64,000 nucleotides of DNA from Geosiphon pyriformis uo1 (lineage: Eukaryota > Fungi > Glomeromycota): the NCBI GenBank assembly GCA_016748015.1, contig JAAOMT010000503.1:62001-126000 (forward strand). Direction: 5' to 3'. Shown piece by piece: positions 1-55,469 of the stretch. Every line of letters begins with the position of its first letter. Positions within the stretch are counted from its first letter, which is position 1. The notes below the pieces were generated by a model. The model saw nothing but the letters and a program-made list of their open reading frames with translations. It had not been told where the DNA came from and did no database searches. Made by a program: the position numbers and the translations under genes.

Positions 1-1352
1 TTTCAATTAAAAAAATTTTTTATCGAGTGGATGGTTTTGGAGGAGCTTCTACTTCCTCAAAGTTTTCTGAGATCATTAGATCCTTTTTTACTTTTGAAAT
101 CAGTTTGAATAAGGCTAGAGAATTGACTGTCAATAGGAAGATTTTAGTTAATGATAATCTGAGAAAAGCAAATATTTGTTTGAATCAGAAGATAATTGTT
201 AAGGAGATTCTGGTTAATCTTTTGAAAGTGGCTGTGGAATCAGTTTTTTCCAAATTTGGCAAGATTATTTCAATCAAAATGCAGCTTATTGGCTTGTGGC
301 AAAAAGCTTTAGTGGAGTTTGATTCATCGGAAATAACTAGCTCAGTTGCGTCTATGTGATCTGTTCTTATGGATAAGGATTTGGTTCATGTGGCATTGGT
401 TGTTGAAGATAAACAAATATGAGTATCAAAGGATCAGCATTGAGCCTTGCTTTATATACTGCCTGTGGGAACCACGGCTCATGATCTTTCTGATTTACTA
501 ATGTCTTATAATAAAAAGACGTGCTTCATTGGTTACAATCCAAATTCATATGTTTGTAATAAGTGTGCAGTTGTTTGTTTTGAAAATAAGGCTGCCAAGT
601 TGGCTGCAACTGGTTCAGTCCCAGTTTTTAGGGGTGTGAATTTGTGCTGGACTGGTCTTTCTTTGGCTTGTTGTGCAATTTGCAAGCATTTTGGTTATGT
701 TGGTGGTGATTGTTTAGTGGGTGAGAATTCTGGCAGTCATAGGAGACGAGTGGTAACTGATTAGGATCGTGTTTGTTTGGCTGGGATTTATAAGAAGAAA
801 TTGGTTTCTGTTGCTCATCTGGTTTCTTTTGGTGGCAAAACATGGACCCAAATTGCTGGTGGCTCTTCCTCTTATGTGGTGTCTTCAGGTCTTCATGGTG
901 CTGATGCATCCTCTGGTGCAAAGGTCCTCTTGATAGATTTTTTTTCTCGTGATGTTTCTGGTCTAAATGACCATTTGGCAGTATTGGAATGCTCCTTAGA
1001 GCTTTTGGCTGATCAAGTCTCTGACATTCTGAAAAGATTGAGTGGTGTTGAGTTGGTGCCATTGGCAGCCTTCTCCCATGTCTTTCCATTGAAGGTTTCT
1101 GCATTTGATGTTCTAATTTCTGGTTTGAATATGGCTGTAGACACTTCATTGCCCTCTTCCAACTCTTCTCATCTGGTTTCTGATGGCCCTATTGCTGAGC
1201 TTGGCCCAAGTAGTTCAAAGATTCTGACCTCTAAGATCAGTGGTCTGGAATCTAAGTTGTTAGCTTTGGAAGCATCAGTTGGTTCTGTGTTGGCAAAATT
1301 GGATCTCTTGTGTTCTGGTTCAGGTTTGGTTGTATCTTCTTCCTCTTAATAA
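1..1352 (+). pseudogene. LINE ORF1 (RRM-like region plus CCHC zinc knuckle), disrupted
   Basis: ORFs 27-359, 447-764 and 777-1349 are in one frame. The knuckle C-AI-C-KHFG-Y-VGGD-C has the His changed to Tyr (CAT>TAT). Confidence 0.85.
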
Positions 1353-4300
1353 TTGAGTTGGTCTGGAAATTTGCTACATGCAACGTTTGGGGTATCAATG
1401 TTCCTGTAAAACAAGCAGATGTTGTTTGCTGACATGTGAATTCTGGGAATATGGTGTTTTTTATTACTGAGACCAAGTTGAGATCTTCTATTGGTTCATG
1501 GATCAAAAATGAATATGATGGTGTTCGTATCTTCATTTCTGGTTTGGAGGTTGGTTTTCTTAGCACTGGTGTTGCCATTATCATGAACAATTCTTTGGCT
1601 TGTTATGTTTCTAAGATTGAGGAGGTGCCTGGCCAGATTGTTGTGGTACGGCTTTTGTTTAAAAACAAGCTTTCGGTTTCTGTTGTTGGTTTGTATGCTG
1701 GTGCCTCTCCCAGTGTCCGTTTTGGTCAGGCTTCTGAGGTTAACTCTTTTATTCCTAAGGCTGCTAATTCTAGCACTTTTGTCATTCTGGGCAGGAACTT
1801 CAATGAAAATAGATCTGGGAGGAGTGCAAGCTTCAAGTTCTGCTCGAGTTTGGGTTTGGTTAATTCGTTCGCTGGTCATTTTTTAGTTGGGGCTCCTACA
1901 TAAAATAATTCTAGAGGGGTTGAGAAAACTATTGATTTCATTTTTGTCAGTGAAAATTTAGCTTCTGCTGTTGCTAACCATGGGTTGAGCTCTGTCTCAG
2001 GCTTCTTCGACACTGATCACAATGCTGTTATGGTTTTAGTCGGATTGGGTGGGCTTTTGGATGTTCATTTAAATAGTTTGCACAAGCATGCTAACAAAAA
2101 TTGTTGGAAGTTTAATATCAAGGATGTGGATGAAGCTAAATGGTCTTGTTTCAGAGACTGCGCCTCTGCTGCAGTTTTAGATATTATGGATAGTTTTAGT
2201 GCTGCTGCTGCTGATTGTGATTTGGACATTATGTGGTTTCTGTTAGAAAAGGTTTTGGTGGATTCTGCAGATGTGACATTTTCCCAGCGTTGGTTTAGTG
2301 AGTTTTATTGTTCAAAAAATAAACAATCTTTTAAATTTCTGGGTTTGGAGTTGCTGATTGTCAAAATTGTCAAAAAATTTGACTCAGCTGATACCTCTAA
2401 TTTTGACTGTTTGGTGAGGAAATGGTCTATGTTGGATGTTGATAAGGCTCTTGTGTTGGTAGACATGGTTGATTTTGGTTGGAAAAAAACCAACATTCTT
2501 AAGTTCTTATTGGTTGTCAGAAGAGAGTACAGGAAATCCAAGATGTATGAATCGAAATTGGCATAGAAGACTGCTATCAGAGAGGCTATTAAGAAGTGCA
2601 TGAAAAAGTTTTGCTCTAACAAGGGCAGCATGATCAGAAGTGTTTTAGATCAGCCATTTTGGAAGGTAGTATTGGATTATTTAGTGGTTGATAATGAGCT
2701 TGTTTTGGAGCCTGAGAAGGTAAAGTTGAAAATTGACAGGATTATGAAGGGTTGGACAAGGAAACAGATGGTGTCTTCAGTGCTGTCTAATCTTTGAGCT
2801 CATCAATATGCCCCTTTGGTCTATGTCAGGGATGATGCTTTTTCTGGTGTTATGGATACTGTTAGTTTAAGTGAGTTGCTCCTGGTCATTGGCAGTCTTC
2901 TTGATGACAAAGCTGCTGGGTTATCTGGCATTACTAATGAACTTTGAAAGCATGGTGGTGAAAAGATAATGGAATGCCTCTTGGTGTTGTTGAATGTGTG
3001 TCTGTCTGTTGGTTCTGTGTCTGCTTTGTGGAAGAGAGCTTGGGTTTTAATGATTTTGAAACCTTATGATTGGGATGAGGTTCTAACAAATACTCATTCT
3101 ATTGCCTTGATCGAAATGGCCAGAAAAATTCTTTCCAAGATTCTTTTGGACAGGATTTTGTTTGTGTGCAGCAAGTTTAACATTCTCCATAGTGACAATT
3201 TTTCAGTGCTAAAGGGTACTTCCACTCAATCTCCTGTGTTTGCTGTTGAATCAGTGGTGGAGAATACTCTTGAAAAAAATAGGAAACTTTGGTTAGTGTT
3301 GCAGGATATGCACAAAACATATGATTCTGTTGGTTGGCACTACTTGAGAACTAGCCTGCGTTGTATCAAGATGTGTGACAGATTTGTTGAATTTTTTGGT
3401 GGGATTCATGAGAACAGGGTTAATAGAATGATGACTGATTTTGGTCTCTTAAATAGTTACAGGGTACATGATGACCTTGATCAAGGTGAGGTCTTTTCGC
3501 CTCTTTTTTGGTATATCTTCTATGACCTGCTCTTGTGTGAGGTTAAAAGACATGAACATTTGTGTGGATATCATATTAATACAAAGTTTGTGGCGAAAAC
3601 TGGCAGGATCAAAAATAATGGTGGGATGTTTTCATTCTTTGCTGCTGGTGCTTTTGTGGATAATACAATTTGGGTTAGAGATTGCCAATCTTCCATGCAG
3701 TATGCTTTGAATATTGCTAGTGATTTCTTCTCTATCAATGACATCTCTATAAACAATAAAAAAATGGTGGCTATACTAATTAATTAGGGTGTTAGATTTG
3801 CTTCTTTGAGTATAAGTGATCAGCTAATCTCTATCACCAAGAAGGGCAAAGCTCACAGATATTTGGGTATTTTTTTATTAACTGAAGGGTTTTCTAAACC
3901 AAGTTTGGCCAAGGCTCACTCAGATGTTTGTTTTTTTGTCCACACAGTGCTAAGGAAAACAATTACGGATAAGCAATTTCTTATTTGGTCTTGGCTGTTT
4001 TACAGCCCATTGTTAGTTACCAAACACAGTTCAGTTTTGTTTCATCTGGTGTTTGCTGCAAGTGAGATGTTTTGGTTAAGAAGGGCTTCAAGTCCAAGGC
4101 ATATTTACCCTGTGATTTCCCTGATATTGCTCTGTATCACTCTTCTCTATATGGCTTAAAGTTTTTTAAGCAAGTGCAATCTGAGGCAAAAGTGGCCTCT
4201 TTGATTTCCTTTTTTAATGACCCTAGCATCCTTGGTTGCTTGTTTAAACATAGGTGTTTGGACTTGCAGGTCTAGGGGTAGGCTCCCTTAAATCCTCTTC

Positions 4301-6028
4301 AAGCTCCTGTCAAGCTGCGTGTTAGTCCAGTGAACAATTTTTTGGTGAGTGTAATGAAGATTTTTTTGAACAATAGTCTCTCTTTGGTGAACAACCTCCT
4401 TAATGCATTTCATCATCCTGGTTGTTTTCCAATGTCTTTGATTCTTGGGGAGTCTTTGTACTTTGATTCTGTTCGGTCTCTTAAATGTTATAATGTTGCT
4501 TTTGGAGATTGGATCTTCGATAAAAAGAGTGTTCTGTTGGATTGAAAGACTTTTTGTCATTGGAAATGGTTAGATCTATGGGGCCCAGTGTCTCTTTGAT
4601 TTGTGGCTGCTTCTAAGTATTTGCTGAATAAGAGTTTCTTCTCTTTTGGTTCTTCTGGCACTGCTTATTCTTGTGGTTTGAACATTTTGGAGTCTGATGT
4701 GTTTTCCTCTGTGTGGGATGGTTTACATGGGGTCTGGTCTGGCTGTTTTGAAATTTACACAGACAGGTCTTTGATGAGTGCTGGTTCTGCTGATGTGTCG
4801 AGTAGTGCTGCTGCATATTTTCTGGCTTTGAATTTGAGCATTGGTGTCAGAATTTGTGGCCTCTTATTTTCTACTATGGCTGAGTTGTAGGCTGTCGCTC
4901 TTACTTTGGAATGTGTTCCATCCTCTTGTTCAGTGTTCTTGTTTCTTGACAGTCAAGCTGCTATTGATGCGTGTGTCTCTGAGTTGTCATCTGGGGTTCC
5001 AGATTTCTGCAACTGCTGTTGGGTCAAGTATAAGCATGTTTTTAATTTGATTAAGGATAAGGATCTTAGTGTGAGTTGGGCCAAGATCAAGGGCTATGCT
5101 GGTGTTTCTAGTAATATAAAAGCTGACAGATTTGTGGATGAGGCTGCTGGCTCTTTTTATGTTTTACCAGTAAGGGTCTGTGAATGTTTTTTGGTGGCTG
5201 AAGACACTGTGGTTTCAGGCAATGCTTGTCACTTCATCAGGAATTTATTTAGGTCTGTTTGTCATGCTCGTTGAGAAGCTGGTCCAGGCCATAATGTGGT
5301 TTTTGTTGAAATGTTGAGGAATTTTGATTGGGTTGCTTCTGTGAGGGTCTGGCATTCTGACTCACACTTGCTTGCTGGGTTTACCAGCCAAAAATCAGTG
5401 GATCTTTATATGTATTTGATGAAAGCTTTGCATAGGAGGTTGCTGGAAAAGATTGTATGATAGATGTTATCTAAGTGTTCAATGCTTGTTGTATGGGAAG
5501 GTGGAATTGCCTGACCATGTTTTCTTTTGTCCACAAGATGCTCACACTTGTGAGAAGATTCTATTAGAGGCTTCTGCACATTGGGTTTCTCTGATTGGCG
5601 TTTGCGATCTGTCTTCTTTTTTTGTTCTTCTGAATCTTAATTCTTGCCTTTTGAATGTTGGCAGATATTCGGTTTTATGTAAGGGATTTGTGATGAAAAA
5701 TTGGTGTGCTAAAGTGGCTGGTGTTTTTGATGATGTTAAGAAAGCTTCTTGTGTAGTTGTTGATTTTGTAAGGTTCTTGGTTGAGTTGTATTGTTCTAGG
5801 GTGTAGTTAATTAGATTTAAGTTTAGGTCAGATATGGAGAGAGCTGGCTTGGTCAGTGACAATAACTTGATATTGGATTTATCACATGATATGTCTTTTG
5901 TGCTTTTTGACAGTGTGATTAGGTTGCTTGGCATTGCTGAGTCTTTTGCTATAGGTTTTGGTTGTCACAGGCCTTGCCTTTTTTTTTCGGGTTTGGATGG
6001 TAGTCCTTGTATTTGTGTTAGTGCATAG
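1349..6028 (+). pseudogene. LINE ORF2 (APE endonuclease, reverse transcriptase, RNase H, zinc finger), disrupted
   Basis: APE motifs ATCNVWGIN, ITETKL and IDFIFVS...TDH. RT motifs LQDMHKTYDSV, DQGEVFSP, AFVDN and YLG. RNase H motifs YTDRS, AEL, LDSQAAI and KGYAGVSSNIKAD. C-terminal CLLYGKVELPDHVFFC. Confidence 0.93.
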
Positions 6029-6619
6029 TGTTGCCTTGTTTGGCCTAAGTGGCTAGCCACATGTAGGAAGTGCGTGAGTCGTATTTAGTTTGAGCCACTT
6101 AGTCTGGCTCTATGTACTAGATAGTGGTTGGGCTTCACTCATTAAACAGTTAAAAAAAAAATTAAATATAAATAAATTAGTTTAGTATATTTAAAAATTA
6201 ATATAGTTTTAGCAAATTATATTTTAATATTAAAATTTTTATACAAAATAATATATATAAAAAATTGTAAAACCAAAAATAATAAAAACAAAATATTAAT
6301 AAATAAAATTCAAAATTTAGCTAAATTTATTAACAATTTATGTAAATTATTATATTTAATTTGTATATAAAAATGTAATTTGAATTTTTATTTTTTTATA
6401 ATAAAAACAAAAAACTTTAAAATATTGTTTATTATATAAATATTAAATAACAATAAATAATTATTTATAAATTATTTTTACCAAATAAGTATATAAACTA
6501 ATTATAAATTGCTAATAAAACTTACATAAAAATTAAAATATAAAATTAAAAATATATAATTTTAAGTTTAATTTTTATTAAATATAATACACTATTTTTA
6601 TTTTTATTTTATAATTATT

Positions 6620-8150
6620 TTATGAATAAAGTTTAATTACTACCTAGTACATAGAATCAAATTATATAGTTTAAATTAAATATAATTTACATTTTTACTA
6701 TATATAATTAGCTATTTAGATTAAATAAAACTATACTATATATTTATATAAATTTTGACTTTATTACTCAATTTTGAAAAAAAAAGCACAATATGTATTT
6801 ATTAAAATTAACTACAAAAGACTTAATTATATCTAACATATATATTATACTATTTAAAAATTCAGTCATTATTATATATGACAATTCAAATACTAAATTA
6901 TTATCTTTAATTAAACTGGTTTTTTTTATATTTGCTCTGTGCTTTAATCTAATAAACTAAATTTTTAAATAATATAATTCAACCAGATACTTCACAAAAT
7001 CTACAATAATCAAAACAGTTTTTTTTCTATCTTTTAAAATTTTAGCCATTTTTAAAACTATTTTTTTAGCACAAAACTTTTAAAAACTGTAGTATATAGG
7101 CCCAAATCCAATAAATATCAAGAAACAGTACACAAAACAGCAGAAAATAAATAAGTACAAATACTTATCAATAATATTTACAGTTTCAAAAAAATTTTTG
7201 ATATTTTTTCATACATATTAGTGTTTTTTAAACAAGTAAACACATAATTTAACAGCTTTACTTTATTACACAATAAACACAAAACACTTGAATAAATTCT
7301 ATTATATAATTTTTTTCCAATTATAATTAAGAATTTTTTGTATATAATTTTTATTAAATACATATGCAAATTAGCTGTTTTTTTACTTATAAATTTAAAT
7401 AACATATGTAAGTCAAGATACTAAATTTGTATAATTAGCAATTAGTCTATATTTTATATTAACAAGCAAAAAATTATATTACAATTAGAACTAGCTTTTT
7501 AATAAATATAGCAAACAGATTTGTATATATTTTAAACAAAATAATAAATATTATTAGACATTACTATATTTTTAACCATAATAAAATATTTATGTATTTT
7601 ACTTAACAAAAATAAAAAAAAAGTGGTCTTACTTACTAACAAATTTATTCTATTATTGTCCAGAATTTCTGAATAATTCTTAACATTTATCTACTTAACT
7701 AAGAAATTCTTATTCTTAATTAAATTTACAACATGTTTTTTTTAATTTAACACTAATCCTAAAAGTCAGATATAATAAAGTTGAATTCAGAAATACATTT
7801 TAAAAACAGAGTAATAGCTTGTAATTTAACCAATATAGAGAACAAAAGTTTTTAAATTTCAATACTTATATCTATATTAATAACTGAAAAATAAGCAATG
7901 ACTTTACAAACAACTTTAACAAAATTCATATTTTTTAAAAACTTATTAATATATATTTTAATATTATTTAACCAAACTTTATGTAATCTTTCTTACATAT
8001 TAACAAAATTTTCAGAATTTAAAACACTTAAACATGTGGATTACTGATTTAATTACAACTAATATTATTTAATACATATTACAAACAAAATTATTATTAT
8101 TATTTAAAATAGTATATTATTAATTTAAAAATATCTTTTACAAATTGAAA
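6620..8150 (-). mobile_element. Heavily mutated 3' part of the same LINE family, tail-to-tail with the first copy
   Basis: The reverse complement of 6620-6750 aligns to 3' UTR 6025-6150 almost only by C>T/G>A changes. ORF 7178-7405 (LYNRIYSSVLCLLCNKVKLLNYVFTC) matches LYDRCYLSVQCLLYGKVELPDHVFFC. The 5' boundary is approximate. Confidence 0.88.
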
Positions 8151-8699
8151 CAAAAAAATATAAAAATAAATAAGTAGTTATATTAGCCAAATTATTAACA
8201 ATAAATTTATTAATAATTTTTAATTTTAGACCAAATAACTAAAATGTTTTTTTTATAAATAAAATTAACAATCTATTTTTTTAATTTAATAATAATTATA
8301 AAAATTCAATAATCTCAAATCAAATTTAAAAATATAAATAATTTTATAAAAAAAAACATAACTAAAATATTTAATTAATTAAAACACTATTATTAAAATC
8401 CAATTTTTAACAATATAATACTTTTTAGTATTTAATTAATATTATAATAAAAACAAAATTAAGTAATAAAATCAACAGTTTATTTAATAAAGTAAAACAT
8501 AATATAAAATATTAATTAAACATATTAAAAAACCAAAAAGTAATAGAAAATTTAAAAAAGTAATAAGGAATATATATATACTTTAAATATTAATAAGAAG
8601 TATTTAAAGCTTAAAAAAAAGAAAAAAAAGAAATATAAGAAAAAAATAACTAATTGCTTACTATAAAGCTATAAAAAAAAGTTAATTAGTATAAAACTA

Positions 8700-9175
8700 A
8701 TATTTTTTTTAATAAGTTATTTATAAAAATATTAATAATAAATAAATTTGTTTTTATTAAATCATTTTTTAATTACAGAAAAACCATATAAATTATGTAT
8801 ACCTTAACTTATTTTAAAGAAATTTAATAACAATATTAAATTATTAAGATATAAATTCTTTTGAATTTAGTCTTTTTTAATAATAAAAAGTTTTTTAATT
8901 AAAATTTTAATCATATTTATTAAGCAAATATTTACTAAAAATTACATCAAATTTTTAAAAAAATTAATTACTTTATATATAATAATATATTTAAAATGTT
9001 TAATATAGAAAAACCACTTACAAAACAAAATAATATAAACAAAAAATTTATAAAAATAACATTATAATTCAATAAAATTATGATTATATTAACCAAAAAA
9101 TTGTTAATTAAATTGACTTTTAACTTAATAAAAAACTATAATGAATTTTTAAAAGTCTAATTTGCAATTTACAAA
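8700..9175 (+). repeat. Unclassified decayed dispersed repeat; related copy on the opposite strand at about 12290-12800
   Basis: 9085-9160 (atattaaccaaaaaattgttaattaaattgacttttaacttaataaaaaac) matches the reverse complement of about 12315-12390. Family not identifiable. Confidence 0.6.
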
Positions 9176-9894
9176 TTTAAAAATTAGTAATTAAAAAGCT
9201 AATTAATAATATTAAACTATTTAAAAAAACCAGCAATAATGTAATTTTACTTTTATTTTAAATTTGCTTAAAGAATTAAAGAATTATATTTATTTTTAAC
9301 ACATATTTTTAAAAATAAAAATAAATTAAAATCTGTAATTAAAAATTAGATATAATAACAAAAACCAAATACAAAATTTGTTTATTTAAAATATTTTTTT
9401 TTAAGATTATATTAATAAAAATTTGATATTAAAATAAGTATTGATTAAACTAAGCTTAAAAAAAATTATATATTAATAAAAAAATGTTTAGTTATCTGTA
9501 TAACTTTTTTTTGGCAATTACAATAAATAATTTATAGCCAAAAATAATATAAAATTTGTATTTAATCTATTTTGGTTATAAATTTAATATTAATATAATA
9601 TTTACAGAATTGTTTATATTTCTTAATTTTATATAATAAAAGTTATAAAAATTTGTTATAACAAAGAAAAAAAACTTTATTTTAATTCAAACTATTATGT
9701 ATTTTATATTTGTAAGTTTAAAATTTGTTATAATATAGTTAATAAATATTATTAAAAACTTATCAAACTTATTACATATCTTAATTTTTTATAAATTTTT
9801 TATTATATAAAACTAATTAACCAAATTATATGTTTTATATATATCTTATAAAACCAATTATAGTTTATGATTTTTTTTAAAATATCTTTATAAA

Positions 9895-10130
9895 TTTTTT
9901 AATATTTAGTTTAGGTTAATTTAAATTCCATTGAATTATTAAATTAAATTAAACTTAAACTGAATTTAAAATCATTGAATTAAACTAAACTCAAATTCAA
10001 ACAACAAATTTAATTCAAGTTTAGTTTAAAGTTTATAAATATATTTAGGTTTAATTATTAAAAATTATGTTATATTATTAACTAATTTTTTTTAATAATT
10101 TTTGTATTTATAATTAAAAACACTAGTATT
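9895..10130 (-). mobile_element. End fragment of the hAT-like non-autonomous element also found at 35047-36111
   Basis: 10018-10125 is the reverse complement of about 35852-35960. It carries the same decayed short subterminal repeats. Confidence 0.7.
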
Positions 10131-11084
10131 ATAATTGTATTTATTTTAAAATAATATTTAATTAAATTTTTTATTGTTATTTTAGCTATTATAATAAGTA
10201 ATAAATCTAATATTAAATATGATAAAATAAATAAATAAATACAATTAAAATTATAATGCTTTACTAAATTTATTATTATTAACTGTATTTTTAACATAAT
10301 TAAAAATAATATTAAAAAAAAAATAATCAAAAAAACAGTATTATTTAAACTAATTAATATTTTGATTATAATATTTTTAAATAATTCGAAAAATTTAGCA
10401 ATTTTATTAAAAACAACTCAATAATTGTATAAAATAACATATTAATAAAATTAATATAAGTACTAATAAAAGTATTAAATATTTATAAATTTATAATTGG
10501 AATTTTTGTATTTAAAATATATAAAATCAGAAATAAAAACTTGCTAATTTAAAAATAATTCATTTTTAATTATATTATAAGTAAAATTCTATTAGATAAG
10601 ATAATTTAAAATGAATTTATGATATTTAATTTGACATGTATTACAAATGTATTCAAAAATATTAAAATATTAAAATTACAAAGTTAACTTTTCTAATTTT
10701 AAATTATAGAAAGTTTATATTAAAAAAATTTTAAGTAAATTATATTTGGTTTAAATTTTTAACAAATATTTTAAAAACATTATTTTTTTTTATCTAAAAC
10801 TATTTGTACTGTTAAGTTAAAAATATAATTAAAACATTAAAATTAAAAATGTTTTGAATTTTGTTAAATGTTTTTTTCTTTTAATTTTCTTTTTAACTTT
10901 TTATAAAAGTATTATTATTTATAATATTATCTAAGATAATAGCAAAAAACTGTTAAAAAAAATTAGTTTAATAACTAATAAAATTAATAATAAAATTATA
11001 TAAAAAAAATAAGTATAACTCTTTTTTAAACTGTTTTTTTAATTTTTTTGAATAAAAATTTAGCTTAAAACAATAATAAAAATA

Positions 11085-11850
11085 ACTTATACTTATTTTA
11101 TAAAAGTGATTTATAAAAAGTTGTCTGTTGTGGTTAAAAAAAAACTTTATAACAAAAAATACTCAAAAGTTTTGTGTTTATAATGTAAAAAGATTAAATT
11201 TTCTAATTATGTATTTATTTATATAGATAAAACTAATATTTACAAACAGATAATACTTAATTATATTGTAATATAAAAGTCTTTAATAAAACTTTGTGGT
11301 TTGTTATTTTCTGTAATAGTGGAGTTTTTTTTTATATTTCTTAAATATAGATTGTATGTACTGCTTTATAAGAACTTTATACTTAATAATTAGTATTGTA
11401 AACTATATAAGTATTTAATAATCAAAAAAAAGTTATTTAGGTATTAATTAATTTTGTGTATAAGTTGGGTAAGCATTATTATTTTGAATTATAAAAGCTT
11501 AAATCTAGATACAAAGTTAATATAAAGAAATATAATTTAGTTAATAATAATAAGATAATATCTAATGTGTTTTATATTTTAGTATTAAGTTTATTAGATA
11601 GAATAGTCAAAATAATTGGTCTTAATAAATTATTTGGTGTTAATTTTGGTTTTTATAAGTCTTGTTTGTTTTTTTAGTTCTAAATAATAAGATTTCTATT
11701 TACATAAGAATATAATATTATCTTAATTGGTTTAAGTAACTAGTCATATATAGAAAAAGTGTAAATTATGTCTAATTAGAACTTCTAATTTTGGTTTTGT
11801 ATATTAAATAGTAATTGAACTATACTTATTAAACTTAATAATAATAAAAA
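11085..11850 (+). mobile_element. 5'-truncated, mutated LINE 3' end
   Basis: Relic of the MKxxHRRLPVAVRKRLY...CLxC region at about 11100-11220. The family 3' UTR at about 11710-11840 ends in an A-rich tail. Confidence 0.8.
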
Positions 11851-11889
11851 TTAATTATTAATAATCTGCTAATCTTAATTATTAAAAAA

Positions 11890-12200
11890 AATATTATTAT
11901 TATTTAAGTATTTATTTGTTTACAAAAAGTATTTAAACCAAGCTTAATTAAAATACATATTAATATTTGGTTATTTTTTTAATATAATGCTTAAAAAAAC
12001 TGTATTAAATAAATAATTTTTGTATTTAATCTTAATTTTACAGTTTATTTTTAGTTATTAAACTTAATTTAGTTTTGTTTTACAAAGTATATGCCAAAGT
12101 AAAATGGTTTGATTAGAAAAAATTTAAAGTTTAAGATTAATTTACTTAAAAATTTTTTCAATAAAGTTTTGTATTATCTTTTATTATATAATATAAAATC
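11890..12200 (+). mobile_element. LINE ORF2 fragment (post-RT YLG...KPSLAKAH...KQF region)
   Basis: Aligns to about 3855-4150 of the first LINE after allowing transitions. Confidence 0.65.
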
Positions 12201-14867
12201 TTTTAATTAGTTGTAAGTTAAAAAAATAGGTTTAATTTTAGTTTTTTTTAATGTTTTTGGTATTTTTTGGTATTTGTTTTATTATAAAATTTTATATTTG
12301 CAGATTATTAATTGAATTTTAAAAAATTTATTGCAATTTTTTATTAAGTTAAAAATTAATTTTATTAATAATTTTTTAGCTAATATTATAAAAATTTTCT
12401 TGGTTTGTAAGATCTTTTTTGTAAACAATTTATTTAATGTTTTTTAATATGTTAATAAATTTTTAATATTTATTATATTAGATAATTTTTTATACTATAA
12501 TATGATTAGATTCTTAAAATATTTTAATATTGTATTTAAATGCAAATTTTTGTATAAACATAATATAATTTTGAATTATTAAATATTTTAACATTAAAAA
12601 AAATTGAATCTAAAAAGACTAATATCTTTTTGGTTTATTTTATATTTGTTTTTATACAATAATAATATAATTTTTGTTAATTGTATAATAAACAATTTTA
12701 AAATATCTTTAATTTAAATATATTTTTAGTAATAAATAATAATTTATAAATAATAGATTTATATATAATTAATATTTTTACAAATAGCTTTTTAAAAAAA
12801 TTGTTATTAACAGTATAATAGTATTTTTTACAAAGCTAAATTTAAATATTAAAGTTAAAGTTTACAAATTAGTTTTTTTAATACTTACTAAATTGCAAAC
12901 TATTATATTAATATTAAAATATGTTTTTAGTATAATAATAATATATTTAAATAGTCAAATTAATTTAAATATATATATTATTAAATTAAGTTTGAATATA
13001 TTTAATTTTTAAATTTGTTATTAAAAAAAAAGATATTATATTATTAATTTAAATTTTAATAAAATTTTTTAATTATAATCAAAAGTTAAAAACTATTTTA
13101 ATATTAATAATAATATTTAAGCTAATATTTTTGTTAATAATATTGTTTTTTTGTTTATATATATAAGTAATATATTTTAATAAATAATATTATTAATTTT
13201 GATAATATTTATTATTTTATTTATAATATATGTAGTATTATGTATTATATTTATTGAAAAACTAAACCAAATTTAAATATAATTACTAATTTTTTGTTTA
13301 AAAAAATGAATTGAATTTGTTTTTTATTAATTTGGTATTCTAATTTATACATATAATTTGGTTTTATAAGTAAATTTATAATTAGTTTACATATTTATTT
13401 TATAAAAACAATATATAAAAAATTGTCAATAATAATTAAAAAAACAACTATATAATAAATTTTATTAGAATATTTGTTGTTTATATTATATTAAGACTGA
13501 GTTTTTTAATTATGTTTTTATATATATAAAAAACATCTATATTTATAAAAAATTATTATAAAAATATTTTAAGTTTTAATTATTAAATTTTAATTGTTTT
13601 AATATTAAAAAATATTGTTTTTTTGTTATTTTAATAATAAATTGTATATTATATTATATAAAAGTTTAATATTAAAAATTTAAATTATTAAAACTAGTAT
13701 AATTTTTAAAGATACCAAGAAAATACTCTCTAAATTAATTTGTTTTGTGTATTATTTGGCCATATATTATTAAAATAAGATTTAATTATACAAATTTAAT
13801 AATAAAACAGTTATAAAAAAAACAAACCAATTATTAATAGTGGTTTTATATTATATATATTATCTAATTTATTAATAAAACTTTCTTTTAAAATAGTTTA
13901 TATGTTAAATATTATTAAAATTTTTGTTATTAATTTCGATTTTTGTAAACATTGTTTTTTTTTTACAGATTTAAATAGCAAAATTTTAATATATATTAAT
14001 ATGTAATAATGTTTTAATTAATTAAATAGCTAATTATATGTAAAAAATATATAAATTGTATTTAATTGAAAATAATTAATCTATTTTTATATATACTAAA
14101 TAGTAACAAAATTTTATTTGTTAAATTATAAAAAAACAAAAAAAAACAAAATTAAATAATTAGTATTAAAAAATTTATAAAAGACTAATTATAGTTTAAA
14201 CTAAAACTTTTAATATTAAAAATCTTGTAAAATTTAAAATTTTTTAATATATTTAAAAGTTTTTGATGTTTTTTTTTAAATAATTTATTTGTAAAAAGAT
14301 TTTTTTATAAAAAACAAAAATATTAAAGCTTATTTAATATTGGTATTTATAATAATATATTTATTAATTGTATTTAACTTTAAATAAAAAAAGATAAATA
14401 AATTTTAATAATAAAATTAGAATTTTAATTCATGGATTTTGTGAGTTTTAATGATAATTTTATTGAATTACAAAGATAAAAATATAATTAAATTCAATTA
14501 TTTTAATTAAATCTTAAATACTAATTCAGAAAATTGAATTTACAGTAAAAAATACCTTTTTTTTAAATTAAAACTATTTTTATATATACCAATTTTCTGT
14601 TTTATAAGATAGTATTTAAAAACTTGATATTTATGGTTATTATTCTGTTATTCTATTATCGTTAGTTATAATTTTGTTATTTTATGTTATTACTAACTAT
14701 TTGGCATTATTATGTTATTGTGTGCTATTACATATTAATCATAGTTTTATGAAGAAATCTAAATTACATAATAGAATTTTGATGTGATTCACATTGGAAC
14801 CAATTAACAGGTGCAGCCCAATCTCAAATTTATTGATCACAATCAGTTTTTTCAGAAACCTTTTCAA

Positions 14868-16436
14868 ATGTTGTCTATAACCTCACGTTTTTCTTTAACA
14901 GCACGCTATGTTTTGCGTTCAACATTGCTTGGGCCAACGCGGTGTTTTGCTTCTCAAGCGCCTGGCGCGTCTGAAAGTTTGTCATACACACTTCCTGAAA
15001 ACAGTTTTAAACCTTACAATATAGAGCCCCCTTCAAGAGAAATATCAGTGAATAAAGACGATTTGGTTAAGTTTTATAAGCAAATGGTCACCATGCGGCG
15101 AATGGAAACTACTGCCGATGGACTTTATAAGTCAAAGTTAATCAGGGGTTTTTGTCATTTGTGCACCGGCCAGGTCAGTCTGAAACTTTATTCTGATTGT
15201 TTGAAAAATCTATGTCTTTCGTTAAGTATGATCTTCAAGACATTGTACTCAATTTTAAAGGAGGCTGTGTCGGTAGGCATGGAGGCGGCGATTACACCAG
15301 AAGATCATATAATTACCGCCTACCGTTGCCATGGTTACACTTATGTTCGTGGAGCATCGGTACACGCGATCTTGGCTGAATTGTTGGGTATGGGCTGTAA
15401 ATTCAGATAAAACTATTCCCTAAAGTCGCTATACTCAACTATCAAGTTCTTGATTTCAGCAAAAAAAACAGGTGTCTCAAAAGGAAAAGGTGGCTCTATG
15501 CACATGTTTGCAAAGAACTTTTATGGGGGAAATGGTATTGTTGGTGCTCAGGTATAATGACGATTCACTTTCTATGAATTTGCCTGGAATTTGGTTAATT
15601 TTGATCAAGTGTGTTTACGTCACTTTTAGGTTCCTGTTGGTGCTGGTATAGCATTCACACAGAAGTATCTTGACACTGGAAATGCCACCTTTATTCTATA
15701 CGGGGATGGTGCTGCAAATCAAGGGCAGGTTTTTGAGGCCTATAACATATCTAAATTGTGGGATTTGCCGGCAATATATGTCTGCGAGAATAATTTCTAT
15801 GGTATGGGCACCTCAGCCAGCCGAAGTTCCGCAAATGCCAACTATTATACACGTGGTCATTATATTCCCGGGCTTCAGGTCCATATGAATTTTATTTTAT
15901 TTCAATCTATGAAAAAAATTTAAATCGTCTGTCTTTTAAACTATGTAGGTTGATGGGATGGACGTCCTTGCCGTACGACAAGCATGTAAATGGGCTAAAG
16001 ATTGGGTGGTTTCAGGCAAGGGTCCTCTGGTGCTGGAAATGGTCACTTATCGTTATGGTGGTCATTCTATGTCAGATCCTGGCACCAGTTATCGAACTAG
16101 AGAAGAAATTGCAAACATGAGAAGTAATAAAGATTCTATTACTAGCCTGAGACAGCGACTTCTGGACTTTGAAGTTTTAACGGATGTCGAGCTCAAAGTA
16201 CGTTCTTCAATTAAAAGGGGGATTTTTTTTAAATAATATAGTTATTTAATTGTCAAATTTTACATTTAAAGCAAATCGATAAAGAAGCTCGTAGCATTGT
16301 GGACGAAGCTTCGAAGAAAGCTCAAGATGATCCTCCACCGCCTCTTTCGGAATTATTTACAGATATATATGTTAAAGGAACAGACCTGCCGTTTCACCGT
16401 GGCAGAGAGCGAGAGGAAATAGGGCATTCGGAATAA
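14868..16436 (+). CDS. PDA1: Pyruvate dehydrogenase E1 alpha subunit, mitochondrial (6 exons)
   Basis: Exons 14868-15173, 15261-15387, 15460-15551, 15630-15878, 15949-16197 and 16272-16436, all GT-AG. Motifs [24 protein letters not shown] and [13 protein letters not shown]. Arg/Ser-rich presequence. Confidence 0.97.
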
Positions 16437-29442: not shown

Positions 29443-29779
29443 TCCTGGAAATATTAGACTACCAGCCCATGAATTAACTGACGAAGTGATTATTTAAAAG
29501 AAATATGATGTCATTTAAGATTTACCAATTATATATGTTTAAACATATTTATACAGTAAATAATATTTAGAATATTTATATAAAATTAAAGTATTAGACT
29601 TAATTAATTATAATTGAAATATTAATAATTTAAAAATATTATAAACCATTTAAAAATTATAAAAAAAATCTCTTTTTATTTCTTAGTTTTTAGATTTTAT
29701 GTTTACAACCAAAGCAAAAAAAAACTATTTTGCTATTAAAACTGAGAAAACAATAATCTTATTTAGCTGTTAAAGCATA

Positions 29780-30750
29780 GGTTAATGATACGATCTGGAT
29801 TGGCAATTACAAAACTACAATTCAACATATCCTAGATATTATAAATGAATTCTTTGGCATTAATAACATTTTTATTAATAATAATAAAACTGTAATCATT
29901 TTTATTAATTAAGAAACTTAATATACTTTTTTAAATATTAATAGATTACTAATTTTAATAGCTAAAAAAAATGAATTGTACAAATATCTTGGTTTTATTG
30001 TTAATAGAGAATTTTTTAAAGCTTAGTTTGGCTAAAGCTTATATAGATATCAAATTTTTTACAAATAAGATAAACAATTTTTTTACTTGGTTTCTGTAGT
30101 TTTTTAATATATTATTTATTATAAAATACAATTTTGTTTTGTTTTAAAGAATATTTATGTTAAATAAGACACTATTATAAAAAAAGCCTTAAATTTAAAA
30201 TAAAATTACTTAAAAATTTTTCCAATAAATTCATCTTTTTATAATTCAAAACAGTTTAAACAAATTTAAACTGAGAATATATTGGCTTTTGTTATGTAGT
30301 TTTTAAATATAAAAAGCATTTTGAATAGACTTTTTAATTACTGTTATTTAAATTTGTAAATTTTTGTTTGAATATTATTATATCTTTTTTAATAGTCTAT
30401 TAAGTTAAATATTAATTTCAAACCCAATTTTTTGGTTGGTATTACAAGCATTTTTTTAAATAATAATATTTTTTTACTAATTTTATAATTAATATATTTT
30501 GTTTTATTAAAAAAATACCAATATTAATTGTTTTAAATTGGTTTATTTTTTTTTGGTTCCTTATTTTTTAAAAAATTTAGTATTGTTTTTGTAAAACAGC
30601 TTTTAAATAAAAAGTCTGTATTTTAACTAATTAAGTTTTTATTATTAAAAAAAACTGGATTTAAAAAACCCAATTTTTAGATAATTTATATTAATAATTA
30701 CTTGTTTTATTTACTTTTAAAAACTTAATTACAATATTACTAAGTTTTGT
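29780..30750 (+). mobile_element. Decayed LINE ORF2 fragment (RT xxDD region onward)
   Basis: 29781 onward reads VNDTIWIGNY...ILDIINEFFGINNIFINNNKTV, homologous to 3656-3780. Confidence 0.8.
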
Positions 30751-31557
30751 GGAAAAAAATTCTCTGTTAATTCTGATTTAAAATTAGAAAACAAAAAAAA
30801 TTTAAAACCTAGTTAAACAATTTTTAATACTTTAAAATTATTGCTAAATACTTGTAAATATTTAAACAAAAAATTAATATTAAACTATTATTTTTTTTAG
30901 TTTTACTTGCTTAAACTTAAACATTCAATTTATTACTTAATCAATTTTTAAAACCAAAAAACTTTAAACCAAAATAAGCATTCAAAAACATTAGCAAATA
31001 AAAAAAATGTTTTTAAATTAATTAAAAAAAATTCACAAACAATAAAAAATAATAATAATAATAATAACTGCATATATTGTAAAAATTTTTAAATTTACAA
31101 AAAAAAATATTAAAACCAGTTCTTAAAAATAACTTAACAAAGTTATCAAAGCAAAAAATATTAATAAATAAAATACAATAAAAATATTAAAAGCAATTTC
31201 TTATTTTTTATAAAAAATTATTAAGAAATAATTTAAAAATCTTATTTAATTTTTTAAAAATTAACAAACATTTAGAATTGCTTTTTTCGAGCAATTTATT
31301 GACAATAATATCTTAATTACTTTTCAAAATTGGTTTTAAAATATCAAATAAAAACCAATTAAATCTGTTATAATTTATCTTAAAAAGTTTAACAAACATT
31401 TTATATAAATTTAACAATTAAAAACAAATAACTATTATTTTAATACACAAATATTAGACTAATTTATTGTAAAATTAAAAAACAAACTGATCAAAAAAGT
31501 TTATTTACATATTTTAAAAAATTTAACTATTATTATTTACTATACTAGAGTTTATAA

Positions 31558-32570
31558 TATTTGTTAAAATACCATACTGGTTTCTTGTTATTGAAAAAAA
31601 AACCAGTTTCTGAAAATGCTTAATATTTTATTAGACAGCTATATAAAATTGTTGGTTTTGTCAACTGAAAATTCAAATACACTAATAGTATTGTAAATAT
31701 AACATTTTATAATTTTTTCAATATATATAAAACCTTTGGTATATAGTATTTTAATAGTTGTGTTAAATTTGGTTTCACTAGTTTTGCTTCTGTAGTATTT
31801 TGATCCTATTTTATGAAGATTTTACATTACTATTTGTCTATAACCAAGAGAAAAAAACTATATAACTCAAATTATTTTAGTGTATTATGTATTTAATATA
31901 GACTAATTAAAGACTCTGATTATATATTTTTAGGTATTCATAATAATTGTACTAAAAAAAACCTAATCTTAAATACTATCTAAAAATAAATTGATTTACT
32001 GTATATTTGTATTGCTAATTGTAAAGTAATCTGATTTTTGTATAAAGTAGAATCTTTTAATTACTTATATATATTATTGGTTAAAAGTTTTATATTAAAG
32101 AAATAAATGACTAAGATAGTATGCTTATTAAATATTAGGTTTAATAATGATGTGATAGTTATTAATTTAATTAGAAATTTTGTTAAGGATTATAGAGCTG
32201 CTATTTGGTTACCAGACACATAATTAAGAGCACATTATAAAAAACATAATCTTTTGCTTTATGATAGATTAGTTGCTTTATCTATTTCAAGATTGTTATC
32301 TATATGAATTCTTAAAATAATTTATAATTTTAATATCAAATTAGATATATATGTTTGTTTTAGATTATACTCTCTTTTGATTAGTTTTTATTTTATTTTT
32401 ATATAGGATTTTTTTGTAGTAAATAGTGTAAGTATATAGTGTTGTCTTGATTGATCCAAGTTGCTGGTTATATGTAAAAAAAGCATAAACCATACTTAAT
32501 CTAAAATCTTCTTTAATTGATTGTTTTTAAGTAGTAATTGGACTGTATTCATAAAACTTAATAAAAAAAA
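31558..32570 (+). mobile_element. 5'-truncated LINE inserted in the Gypsy gag, with poly(A) and a ~9-bp TSD
   Basis: Family 3' UTR and A-tail at 32435-32570. Flanks are agtttataa (31549-31557) and agcttataa (32570-32578). The uninterrupted site is present at about 53681-53720. Confidence 0.82.
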
Positions 32571-34639
32571 GCTTATAAAATAGCAATAAAAAAAGCCAAT
32601 CAAATTAAGTTTATTAATTTAGTAATAAATAAAACAAGTTTAATAGCTAAATAAAAATTGATTAACTTATTAAGAAAGTTAAAACTTATTTTACTAATTA
32701 ATAGCAAAAATACTAATTACTACAATAATAAAATAAAGACAACTTTTTATTATTATTAAATAATTAATTATAAGACTTAAATTGTTATTATTATAGAATT
32801 TTAGAATACTAAAAACGTAATTGCAAAAAATACAAAAAAATTAACAAAAACAAAATAATTAATATTATTTAATTATAATAATTATAATAATTATTAATTA
32901 TTTTTTAAGATTTTAACTTAATTATTATTAACTTATTTTATTATTAATTTAATAATATCATTACCAATTATCTTTAATATAAAATTATTAACTATTAATA
33001 AAAAGATTGGTTTAATTCAACCAATTTTTATTACAAAATTATTTTAATTTAACAATAATAAAATTGGTTTTAATAATTAATTGGTATTTTATAATAATAA
33101 TTAACAATTACCAAAACATTTTTATATTTACTTCAACTATTTTACAATATTTAAAGACCAATATTTTATTATATTGTATTTTTAAAAAATAAAATTATAA
33201 TTACAGCAACAAAATTTTTTAAACAATAATATTATAATTTTATTTACAAAAATAACTAAAAATACCAATTTATCTGATATTTTTTTTTAAATTTAAAGTT
33301 TACAAATTATTATTTCTATTTAATAATATAATTATTATAAAACAAAAAGCAATTATTATAATATACACTAAAATTAAAATAAAAAAAGCATTTTAGTTAA
33401 TCTTAAATAATAGATTGGCTGAAAATATTATTATTTATTAACTAATACAAAAGTTTATATGAAATATAAACTAATTTGCTTAAATTATAATTGTTATAGT
33501 TAATAATATAAAAAAACACTAATTAGAAAAATTGATAACTTTTTTTTTATAATTAATAAAATTATTATTTTAATCAAAATTTTTATTATATATATACTCT
33601 AATATTAAGCTTTTGTTAAAAATAATTGGCTTTTAAAGCCAATATCAAATTAAATTAATAAATTTAAAAACTAAAGATTTTATATTAAGAATAATAAATT
33701 AGAATATTTATTATTTGTGGTATTTTTAATAAATAATCTAAAAAAGCTTTTGTATTTAAATTTAAGAAAAAAAAACCAGTTATCAAAATTTACATAATAT
33801 TTAATTATAATTTAATCAAATTAAAGAAATATAATAATAACTATTTGAAATACTTAAATTATAATCTATTTTTTATGATTTAAAAATTTAAACAATAAAT
33901 TAATATTATTAATTAAACAAATTAGTAGTAAATATATCATTTATTCAAAAAAAACAAGTTTATATATTATTTAAATACAAAAATTGTGATAAAAAACTCT
34001 TATTTATAAAAACTTATATATTATTTAAAAAAAATATAGAAATTATATTTGTTATTATTATAAAGTTTATTATAATAAATTATATTTTATTTGTAAATAA
34101 TTATTAAATAAATATAATTAAATTAATATTGTAATAAAAAAAATTTTGTAATTAAATCTATTAATATATATTAATAATATTAAAGAAAGTAAAAAAAAAA
34201 ATGTTTTTTATAGTAGTATATAATAATACTTTTAATAAATTACACTATTACTCTTATAATATTAAAATAATTTATAAATTAACAATTGTTATTATTAATA
34301 AAAAAACCCAATAATATATTTGACAGATAAAAAAAGCTAAATCTTAAAATTTGCTAAATTTGACTATAAAAACAAAGTTAAATTATATTATATAATATTT
34401 AATTATGCATATTTTTTAAAAAAAAACTTATATTTAACAATTAAAACAAATAAATATTCAACTTTGTAAAAAATATATCATGTTTTATAATAACTAATAG
34501 TATTTAAAATATTATGCTTTTAATATATTATTATTTATTAAAAATAATAAAAACAAAATTAAATTTGAAAAACCAGAATTAAAAAAATTTTTAATAATTT
34601 AATCTATTTTATTAAAAACCAATTTGCATTATAACTTAA

Positions 34640-55261: not shown

Positions 55262-55469
55262 ATATATATTAAATTACAAACAGTTAAACTATATCTCAGT
55301 GCTTTATAATTAAAAAACTTTACAAATAAATTTACATCTATTAAAAATTTTTAGAGATTAATAATCTTGATTTGTTTTTTATACCAAACAAAAAACTCTT
55401 CAAGTTTTTTTATTTAAATATAAAACACTAAATATTACTATTATATCTTATTAAATTTATCTATAACAT

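What the first reader, a model, noticed from the sequence alone, without database searches (positions are those of the whole stretch)
1..14700. RIP-like, broad-context C>T hypermutation confined to repeats, with a graded series of copies
Seen: five 3' ends of one LINE family show a decay ladder: 6025-6161 and 61735-61870 are mild, 32435-32570 and 11710-11850 are strong, and 6620-6750 is extreme. For example GGCCTAAGTGGCTAGCCACATG becomes AATCTAAATAGCTAATTATATA. Changes are almost all C>T and G>A on both strands, in CpG, CpA and CpC contexts (CGG>TGG, CAG>TAG, TGG>TGA/TAA), with reading frames largely preserved. Neighbouring genes keep their CpGs and the borders are abrupt. Established: RIP is a Pezizomycotina process with mainly CpA preference, with RIP-like TpCpG signatures in some basidiomycetes; passive 5mC deamination mostly affects CpG. 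Inference: a repeat-targeted genome defence with relaxed context in an early-diverging fungus, where to my knowledge RIP is not established.
Basis: partly seen in the sequence, partly recalled or inferred. Interest (0 to 1): 0.75.

Follow-up and report, generated by a model that had tools for sequence, protein, structure and literature searches.

The report
All-context C-to-T erosion of Geosiphon transposons
In the fungus Geosiphon pyriformis, a relative of mycorrhizal fungi, dead jumping genes have lost up to three quarters of their cytosines to C-to-T change on both strands while neighbouring genes keep theirs, likely through slow decay of heavily methylated repeat DNA rather than the burst-like repeat-killing process (RIP) of sac fungi.

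Summary
The window is Geosiphon pyriformis (Glomeromycotina): gephyrin is 100% identical to G9A89_021488. Against an ancestor inferred from 234 related LINE proteins, the mild copy at 1-6165 has 120 C>T changes at 815 C/G sites and 14 transversions at 1,905 sites. AT-rich copies have lost 52-77% of their cytosines, and block GC falls to 10-19%. Neighbouring introns keep 27% GC and CpG o/e 0.82. But the RIP hallmarks fail. CpG is the hotspot (22/31), CpA, CpC and CpT are about equal (10-16%), RIP indices miss published thresholds, and 194 other copies show equal, unclustered C>T and G>A (17.3% vs 17.6%). Transversions and indels rise along the ladder, so it reads as an age series. Best explanation (0.6): deamination of densely methylated cytosines in all contexts inside silenced repeats; methylation and enzymes were not testable. 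A RID/DIM-2-driven mutator acting one base at a time is not excluded. A published survey scored all seven Glomeromycetes it held as RIP-free and lacked Geosiphon. This scan has already noted a similar pattern on other DNA, in Jimgerdemannia (Endogonales).

The parts
1..6170 (+). LINE copy A (mild). ORF1 part, RT and RNase H regions, 3' end with poly(A); 5' end lies outside the window. GC 0.39, CpG o/e 0.17, 15% of ancestral C/G changed.
   Evidence: (RVT_1 above cut-off, RNase_H below cut-off)
6170..14700 (.). AT-rich block 1 (GC 0.12, 2 CpG in 8.45 kb): a stack of decayed elements
6620..8040 (-). LINE copy E, 3' part; C>T at 92 of 147 ancestral C/G sites
8953..9881 (-). LINE pieces H (8953-9237) and E2 (9351-9881), RT region; C>T at 59 of 77 sites
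11082..11850 (+). LINE copy D, 3' part; C>T at 37 of 59 sites
11851..14150 (+). LINE copy F, with a sixth 3' end at about 14000-14150; C>T at 160 of 221 sites; the most decayed long copy
14868..16436 (+). Intact 395-aa host gene with 5 introns (pyruvate dehydrogenase E1 alpha; name recalled from the sequence, no call). Single-copy control: CpG kept, GC4 0.35.
29550..38770 (.). AT-rich block 2 (GC 0.13); ends within 100-200 bp, about 165 bp before the next start codon
29730..30662 (+). LINE piece G; C>T at 71 of 123 sites
31561..32570 (+). LINE copy C (second subfamily), inserted into an older repeat. The roughly 11-bp target-site duplication has two copies that differ by two transitions; the empty site is at about 53685. 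C>T at 24 of 41 sites.
38935..40168 (+). Intact 225-aa host gene with 7 introns (protein-L-isoaspartate methyltransferase-like; name recalled, no call). Single-copy control, GC4 0.34.
42569..42985 (-). Gephyrin exon used to fix the taxon (100% identical to G. pyriformis G9A89_021488)
51300..61750 (.). AT-rich block 3 (GC 0.19), with close repeat pairs 51535-52000/60798-61243, 51988-52339/59486-59844 and 54459-55245/56894-57651
55467..55766 (+). LINE ORF1 piece; C>T at 24 of 38 sites
61735..62731 (-). LINE copy B (mild, second subfamily, 5'-truncated); C>T at 4 of 41 sites

Best explanation
Dead transposon copies in Geosiphon pyriformis lose cytosines to C-to-T change independently on both strands and in every context, fastest at CpG, likely because silenced repeats are densely methylated at CpG and partly at all other cytosines and the methylated bases deaminate over time without efficient repair. 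Shown: the spectrum, its symmetry, the lack of clusters, the contrast with introns and the ladder down to about 10% GC. Inferred: (1) after insertion a copy is marked by CpG methylation (DNMT1/DNMT5 type) plus lower all-context methylation (DIM-2 type); (2) 5mC deaminates to T, at roughly 7 times the non-CpG rate at CpG; (3) genes and their introns stay unmethylated and are spared; (4) load grows with time in place, so the ladder is mainly an age series and old stacks drift toward an equilibrium of roughly 5-14% GC. Inactivation of the elements (nonsense codons) follows whether or not it was selected as a defence.
For: Spectrum vs protein-inferred ancestor: copy A C>T 120/815, C>A 1, C>G 1, T>C 20/1090, T>A 9, T>G 3. 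All 234 proteins: C>T 13.5%, C>A 0.44%, C>G 0.25%. Ancestor-free: three close pairs differ by 195 transitions and 36 transversions in 1,308 columns. Of the 40 best-supported differences between copy A and other copies in public run X1 (2,512 more not shown), 28 are C>T losses in A, before T 12, A 10, C 6. Context in A: CpG 22/31, CpA 34/343, CpC 47/288, CpT 17/151. Symmetry: 194 of 234 proteins had enough events; coding-strand C>T 1716/9931 vs G>A 4449/25226; strand-share dispersion 0.72, against 2.8-48 simulated for 16 to 1 single-strand rounds; strand switches 2463 vs null 2479; within-copy clustering dispersion 1.06. Clock: corrected C>T per transversion is 22 in A and 29 in the AT-rich pool; C>T load correlates weakly with transversion load over 220 proteins (rho 0.26); nested copy C (0.59) is less decayed than its host (63/96 and 33/45). 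Control: 19 introns GC 0.27, CpG 18 observed vs 22 expected; 622 four-fold sites GC 0.305. Literature (passages): R. irregularis has 32.5-49.5% of cytosines methylated, and AMF are stated to encode DNMT1, DNMT2, DNMT5, DIM-2 and RID (PMC8298701). Phycomyces has repeat-restricted 5mC at CG 3.4%, CHG 0.5%, CHH 0.9% and encodes DIM2 and DNMT1 (PMC11258239), a CG:CH ratio of 4-7, close to the mutation ratio here.
Against: No methylation data and no methyltransferase inventory for Geosiphon could be obtained (no genome held; literature search found none). CpG>TpG runs at roughly 250 times a single transversion type in copy A (my arithmetic), several times the mammalian ratio (recalled), so plain passive decay needs weak T:G repair or long dormancy. 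4 of 35 strand-run tests on window pairs had p<=0.05, and one (A vs F, p=0.001) survives correction. A 5' pyrimidine preference (TpC 0.80-0.83 vs ApC/GpC 0.59-0.70; p=3e-5 to 1e-3 in DNA alignments; only p=0.054 in protein-only alignments) is not predicted by simple deamination. The C>T/transversion ratio varies 2-27 between pieces in the protein-only analysis, and pieces E1 and E2/H differ (p=0.05), so position may matter as well as age. In Zymoseptoria, Dim2-dependent mutation hits CpA, not the most methylated CpG sites (PMC8016269), so mutation need not follow methylation level. A 2026 review lists RID as Ascomycota only (PMC13297926), which conflicts with PMC8298701. The ancestor comes from annotated, hence mild, copies found with copy A as query.
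Confidence: 0.6

Rival explanations
1. An active methyltransferase-linked mutator (DIM-2 or RID) converts cytosines in repeats enzymatically, in mitosis or in very many small rounds, with no 3' preference: a dispersed, RIP-like defence.
For: Very high C>T ratios (non-CpG C>T about 37-42 times each C transversion). Precedent of Dim2-dependent mitotic C>T in TEs (PMC8016269; equilibrium GC 2.7% in PMC8497519). AMF are stated to have DIM-2 and RID. The mild TpC bias looks like an enzyme preference.
Against: CpG is the hotspot and CpH contexts are flat, as passive decay of methylated DNA predicts. No clustering. The sequence alone cannot separate this from the best explanation.
Confidence: 0.23
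2. Classical RIP with relaxed context: homology-triggered, premeiotic, single-strand bursts of C>T.
For: Repeat-restricted C>T with abrupt borders. Stops come from C>T/G>A. One pair shows a strand-run deficit. RID is reported in AMF.
Against: 91.9% of Neurospora RIP clusters are single-strand (PMC7296669), whereas 194 copies here show no strand heterogeneity or clustering. No CpA preference; Trp codons in A go to TGA 9, TAG 2, TAA 1. TpA/ApT is 1.07-1.11 and (CpA+TpG)/(ApC+GpT) 0.82-1.01, against thresholds of >2 and <0.7. The family reached hundreds of copies (445 protein representatives at E<=0.001).
Confidence: 0.06
3. A genome-wide AT-biased mutation pressure plus CpG decay acts everywhere; genes stay GC-richer only through selection or GC-biased gene conversion, and the repeats are simply old and unconstrained.
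For: Transversions are also AT-directed and rise with decay (C>A 49/784 vs T>G 14/1096). Short intergenic patches reach 10% GC. The ladder behaves as a clock.
Against: Introns and four-fold sites hold 27-30% GC with CpG o/e 0.82, against an equilibrium of 0.055-0.14 computed from the repeat spectrum. GC steps from about 10% to about 30-38% within 100-300 bp. The control is compositional, not a measured spectrum; 5 of the 19 introns have approximate borders.
Confidence: 0.08
4. A cytidine deaminase acting on retrotransposon cDNA, or UV damage at dipyrimidines, made the changes.
For: 5' pyrimidine (TpC > RpC) bias.
Against: cDNA editing would be one-stranded and fixed at insertion, but strands are symmetric and the two target-site copies of C diverged after insertion. 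Cytosines flanked by purines mutate almost as often (ACA 148/214, GCA 75/116).
Confidence: 0.02
5. Sequencing or assembly artefact.
For: Very AT-rich, low-complexity DNA; the window has N gaps elsewhere.
Against: 86% of sampled 31-mers of 1-10000 are in public run X1 (possibly the source data, so not independent). The same spectrum appears in 234 separately annotated proteins. Both change types are interleaved in each copy.
Confidence: 0.01

Closest known systems
Dim2-dependent mitotic C-to-T mutation of TEs in Zymoseptoria tritici (PMC8016269, abstract and section 11; PMC8497519, passages)
   Same: TE-restricted C>T, >95% of mutations, drives TEs toward very low GC, linked to a cytosine methyltransferase, needs no sexual cycle.
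   Different: There >98% of changes are at CpA and methylated CpG is spared; here CpG is the hotspot and CpA, CpC and CpT are about equal. There the enzyme dependence is shown by experiment; here it is inferred.
Repeat-induced point mutation (RIP) of Neurospora crassa and other Pezizomycotina (PMC7296669, passages; PMC12543289, abstract, section 9, tables)
   Same: Repeats riddled with C>T/G>A, nonsense codons, AT-rich blocks with sharp borders next to intact genes.
   Different: No CpA preference, no single-strand clusters, RIP indices below threshold, clock-like ladder, a very large family persists; homology trigger and premeiotic timing untested.
TpCpG hypermutation of TEs in Pucciniomycotina (PMC3318451, passages)
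   Same: CpG hotspot and a 5' T effect in repeats of a non-ascomycete.
   Different: There non-CpG cytosines are not elevated; here most losses are outside CpG and the 5' T effect is mild.
Repeat-restricted CG plus CHH methylation in Phycomyces blakesleeanus (PMC11258239, passages) and high 5mC in Rhizophagus irregularis (PMC8298701, PMC8647823, passages)
   Same: Same phylum; methylation is concentrated in TEs, with CG several times higher than CH, which fits the mutation ratio here.
   Different: Those papers report methylation, not mutational erosion to about 10% GC; RIP signatures are stated to be undetected in Gigaspora and Mucoromycotina (PMC8647823).

Membership tests
RIP (Pezizomycotina) | C:G>T:A transitions dominate in repeated DNA | tested here: met
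   120/154 changes in copy A; 443/518 to 494/639 in AT-rich copies
RIP (Pezizomycotina) | Single-copy genes largely spared | tested here: met
   Intron GC 0.27, CpG o/e 0.82, GC4 0.305, open frames; compositional control only
RIP (Pezizomycotina) | CpA/TpG dinucleotide preference and RIP indices | tested here: not met
   CpA 0.10, CpC 0.16, CpT 0.11, CpG 0.71; TpA/ApT 1.07-1.11, substrate index 0.82-1.01 vs >2 and <0.7
RIP (Pezizomycotina) | Mutations clustered and on one strand per round | tested here: not met
   194 copies: strand dispersion 0.72, switches 2463 vs 2479, clustering dispersion 1.06; copy A null; 4 of 35 window-pair tests p<=0.05, one at 0.001
RIP (Pezizomycotina) | Triggered by sequence homology (duplicated genes hit, unique linkers spared) | tested here: inconclusive
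   No duplicated host gene or proven unique linker in the window; copy number of the AT-rich patches could not be measured
RIP (Pezizomycotina) | Requires RID (and DIM-2) and a premeiotic stage | not testable with these tools
   No genome held; RID and DIM-2 are stated for AMF in PMC8298701, but RID is listed as Ascomycota only in PMC13297926
Pucciniomycotina TpCpG hypermutation | Excess confined to TpCpG, other cytosines at background | tested here: not met
   Non-CpG C>T 1,557/11,998 vs C>A 42 and C>G 37
Dim2-type mitotic C>T mutation (Zymoseptoria) | TE-restricted C>T | tested here: met
Dim2-type mitotic C>T mutation (Zymoseptoria) | CpA-specific, CpG spared | tested here: not met
5mC deamination decay of methylated repeats | CpG is the fastest context; both strands independent; load grows with age | tested here: met
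   the age link is modest (rho 0.26; ratio varies 2-27 between pieces)
5mC deamination decay of methylated repeats | Mutated contexts are methylated in vivo (non-CpG 5mC in these repeats) | not testable with these tools
   No methylome for Geosiphon found

The most novel reading that the evidence does not exclude
Geosiphon runs an active, methyltransferase-driven repeat mutator (RID or DIM-2) that ignores 3' context, prefers TpC slightly and works one base at a time on both strands: a dispersed, probably mitotic form of RIP in Glomeromycotina. With the scan's Endogonales cases, it would place repeat-directed mutagenesis before the split of Mucoromycota and Dikarya.
Probability: 0.23. Interest if true: 0.8.

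Novelty: new variant of a known kind. Interest (0 to 1): 0.55.

Why it matters
It shows repeat-restricted, all-context C-to-T erosion down to about 10% GC in a Glomeromycotina lineage. The group was scored RIP-free (7 of 7 Glomeromycetes and 30 of 30 Mucoromycota 'no_rip' in PMC12543289; Geosiphon not sampled). CpA-based RIP indices cannot see this pattern. It makes a sharp prediction, dense non-CpG 5mC in Geosiphon repeats, and gives a dated substrate to ask what the DIM-2/RID genes reported in AMF do. The tests also warn against citing this signature as evidence of a sexual cycle in these supposedly ancient asexuals, because it lacks the single-strand clusters of premeiotic RIP. Practically, many annotated G9A89 'hypothetical proteins' are decayed LINE copies.

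Tried and rejected
No whole genome was held, so there was no genome-wide OcculterCut/RIPCAL run and no methyltransferase search. Plain BLASTN self-comparison was swamped by low-complexity hits; purine/pyrimidine seeding replaced it. Raw copy-vs-copy spectra were set aside because subfamily divergence adds about 15% transversions. One long alignment (A vs E) ran through non-homologous DNA and was used only after a confidence filter. The genome-wide dinucleotide split (CpC 0.048) is biased by amino acids with ambiguous codons and by invisible stops; it was replaced by guaranteed non-CpG exchanges. The apparent protection of cytosines behind A-runs was weak or inconsistent in alignments and is not claimed. 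No RNA holder listed. A second read-laying, meant to give copy number of the AT-rich patches and within-sample variation, gave no data, so those questions stay open. No DNA of other Geosiphon copies was found in prokaryote genomes or viral contigs. Fifteen related LINE loci from metagenomes have GC 0.30-0.43 and CpG o/e 0.46-1.17; they are single snapshots of unknown organisms and were not used further. Pfam matched 2 of 7 LINE fragments. The two Geosiphon genome papers are not held, so they may mention this pattern. The U1-C-like gene model stopped at 40 aa, so only 13 of its four-fold sites and approximate introns entered the control.
Full report
Organism and layout. No whole genome was held. 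A gephyrin exon (42572-42985, minus strand) is 100% identical to Geosiphon pyriformis G9A89_021488; the next named hits are Glomus, Rhizophagus and Ambispora. The LINE RT fragment hit 44 proteins, 41 of them named G. pyriformis; the RNase H fragment hit 45, all named G. pyriformis. So the window comes from a Glomeromycotina fungus, not from a RIP-competent ascomycete. It alternates gene islands (GC 0.35-0.37, CpG o/e 0.75-0.84) with three AT-rich blocks: 6200-14650 (GC 0.12, 2 CpG), 29600-38750 (0.13, 4 CpG) and 51300-61750 (0.19, 11 CpG). LINE copy A (1-6160) has GC 0.39 but CpG o/e 0.17. 86% of sampled 31-mers of 1-10000 are in public run X1, which may be the source data but shows that the AT-rich DNA is in reads.

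The observation. The five 3' ends align, fall into two subfamilies (A/D/E plus a sixth end F at about 14000-14150; B/C), and form a GC ladder of 0.41, 0.34, 0.24, 0.16, 0.13 and 0.09. Mapping 234 related proteins onto the window finds 12 LINE stretches beyond copy A. Direct A-vs-copy alignments show C>T/G>A at 55-70% of C/G sites, but also about 15% transversions, because the copies descend from different master elements. To remove that, I mapped the 234 proteins held at that point onto A and took codon positions where at least 60% of at least 8 proteins agree and the base is fixed by the amino acid (1,905 positions). Copy A then shows C>T 120/815, C>A 1, C>G 1, T>C 20/1090, T>A 9, T>G 3. Seven AT-rich pieces show C>T 443/665 and 58 transversions in 1,555 sites (B and C were left out of this pool because the consensus fits them poorly, and were scored on their own consensus: 4/41 and 24/41). 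A protein-only alignment that uses no DNA scoring matrix gives C>T 494/784, C>A 49, C>G 5, T>C 19/1096, T>A 58, T>G 14 for seven AT-rich pieces including C. Two ancestor-free checks agree. Three close repeat pairs in block 3 differ by 195 transitions and 36 transversions in 1,308 columns. Contigs of X1 laid on copy A show 2,095 transition and 457 transversion places; 28 of the 40 listed best-supported differences are cytosines lost in A. 16 of 18 in-frame stops in A are C>T/G>A products, with only 3 frame switches.

Context. In copy A, CpG changed at 22/31 sites, CpA 34/343, CpC 47/288 and CpT 17/151. Allowing for loss on either strand, CpG is about 7 times faster than the rest (my arithmetic). 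From mild to AT-rich copies the 3' neighbour makes no difference (CpA 0.73, CpC 0.71, CpT 0.74, CpG 0.82; p=0.46), while a 5' T or C raises loss (TpC 0.80, CpC 0.78, ApC 0.70, GpC 0.66; p=3e-5). That bias is only borderline in the protein-only alignment (p=0.054). In the other copies, amino-acid exchanges that cannot involve CpG give C>T 1,557 of 11,998 against C>A 42 and C>G 37. So most of the loss is outside CpG and has no CpA preference. The RIP indices of the blocks (TpA/ApT 1.07-1.11; substrate index 0.82-1.01) miss the thresholds quoted in PMC7296669 (>2, <0.7; passages), although looser thresholds that I recall would pass them.

Bursts or clock. [quoted passage not shown] Among 194 of 234 proteins with at least 10 events, coding-strand C>T is 17.3% and G>A 17.6%. 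The spread of strand share between copies is 0.72 of binomial, whereas simulations with 1-16 single-strand rounds give 48-2.8. Strand switches (2463 vs null 2479) and within-copy clustering (dispersion 1.06) are at random expectation, while total load differs four-fold in dispersion between copies. Copy A alone is also random. Against this, 4 of 35 tests on window pairs had p<=0.05 and A vs F had p=0.001; neighbour dependence in nearly saturated DNA may explain it (inference). The ladder looks like age. Transversions rise from 0.7% in A to 3.7-6.7% in AT-rich copies, and corrected C>T per transversion is 22 vs 29. Gaps are far denser in AT-rich copies. Copy C sits inside an older repeat, with a target-site duplication whose two copies differ by transitions, and it is less decayed than its host (0.59 vs 63/96 and 33/45). 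The link is loose: rho is 0.26 across 220 proteins and ratios run from 2 to 27 between pieces, so a position effect is not excluded. There is no gradient along A toward the AT block.

Single-copy control. Nineteen introns from four genes have GC 0.27 and 18 CpG against 22 expected; 622 four-fold sites have GC 0.305 (five introns have approximate borders). The repeat spectrum implies an equilibrium GC of 0.055-0.14, near the blocks and far below the introns. Borders fall within 100-300 bp of genes. This argues against a uniform genome-wide bias, but it is compositional: selection or biased gene conversion in genes cannot be excluded, and three short intergenic patches of 10-20% GC have no detected homology.

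Mechanism. The pattern that fits is dense methylation of silenced repeats at CpG and, more thinly, at all other cytosines, followed by deamination with poor repair (inferred). AMF are stated to encode DNMT1, DNMT2, DNMT5, DIM-2 and RID, and R. irregularis has 32.5-49.5% of cytosines methylated (PMC8298701, passages). R. irregularis TEs are CG-methylated (PMC8647823, passages). Phycomyces, with DIM2 and DNMT1, has repeat-restricted 5mC at CG 3.4%, CHG 0.5% and CHH 0.9% (PMC11258239, passages). A review lists RID as ascomycete only (PMC13297926, passages), so RID in Geosiphon is open. The very high C>T ratios leave room for an enzymatic mutator such as the Dim2-dependent mitotic one of Zymoseptoria (PMC8016269, abstract and section 11; PMC8497519, passages), though that one is CpA-specific. 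cDNA deamination and UV are rejected as main causes by strand symmetry, post-insertion divergence and high loss at purine-flanked cytosines.

What is known. Badet and Croll (PMC12543289; abstract, section 9, passages; supplementary files 1-12 and 14 searched, 13 and 15-19 not, three too large) restrict RIP-like signatures to ascomycetes. All 30 Mucoromycota rows, 7 of them Glomeromycetes, are 'no_rip', and Geosiphon is absent from the files searched. PMC8647823 states that RIP signatures were not detected in Gigaspora or Mucoromycotina. PMC11952901 (passages) reports 41.2% LTR cover in G. pyriformis and does not mention RIP. PMC3318451 (passages) describes TpCpG-only hypermutation in Pucciniomycotina. 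PMC12344493 and PMC13443276 (passages) had nothing on Geosiphon methyltransferases. Searches listed no paper on C>T erosion of Geosiphon repeats; the two Geosiphon genome papers are not held. Earlier notes of this scan describe a similar pattern in Jimgerdemannia (Endogonales); they are unchecked AI notes on another genome, and I did not test them.

Verdict. The feature is real and unusual for this group: repeat-restricted, all-context C>T erosion to about 10% GC. It works like RIP in outcome but fails RIP's context and strand tests, so it should not be filed as RIP. It is best read as a new variant of methylation-linked transposon decay. Interest 0.55.

Noticed in passing
window 14000-14150: A sixth LINE 3' end (copy F), more decayed than the five listed (GC 0.09).
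   Followed up: yes
window 31550-32575 and 53660-53715: Nested LINE insertion with a target-site duplication of about 11 bp and an empty-site copy in the same window; usable as a dating pair.
   Followed up: yes
window 16480-17330, 19800-20000, 43600-43800: Short intergenic patches of 10-20% GC, almost CpG-free, between intact genes, with no homology found in the window; tiny TE relics or methylated spacers.
   Followed up: partly
window 54445-57650, 59940-60800, 62600-63250: A family of about 600-800 bp present five times (direct and inverted), with no LINE-protein match inside it; its copies lose 17-51 of 107 shared C/G sites. Family not identified.
   Followed up: partly
window 51535-52340 with 59486-61243: Two adjacent close repeat pairs in inverted orientation about 8-9 kb apart; possibly long terminal inverted repeats or a split duplicate.
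   Followed up: partly
window 9980-10125 and 35852-35986: 110 bp of exact purine/pyrimidine identity between blocks 1 and 2, in an unidentified repeat rich in short AATTNAA-like units.
   Followed up: no
proteins P0001-P0234: Many proteins annotated as G. pyriformis 'hypothetical protein G9A89_' are decayed LINE copies (445 representatives at E<=0.001 for the RNase H region); they inflate the gene count.
   Followed up: partly
window 43805-44425 and 45179-45198: Assembly gaps (544 N in all) flanked by long poly(T)/poly(A) runs.
   Followed up: no
window 46930-48735 and 49008-50113: CCCH zinc-finger ORF of 601 aa with poly-His/poly-Gln tracts, followed by a second zinc-finger/RING-like ORF (makorin-like; label recalled, no call); one gene or two is unresolved.
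   Followed up: no
L001-L015: Related LINEs with RT in metagenome contigs keep GC 0.30-0.43 and CpG o/e 0.46-1.17, i.e. no such erosion in these snapshots.
   Followed up: partly
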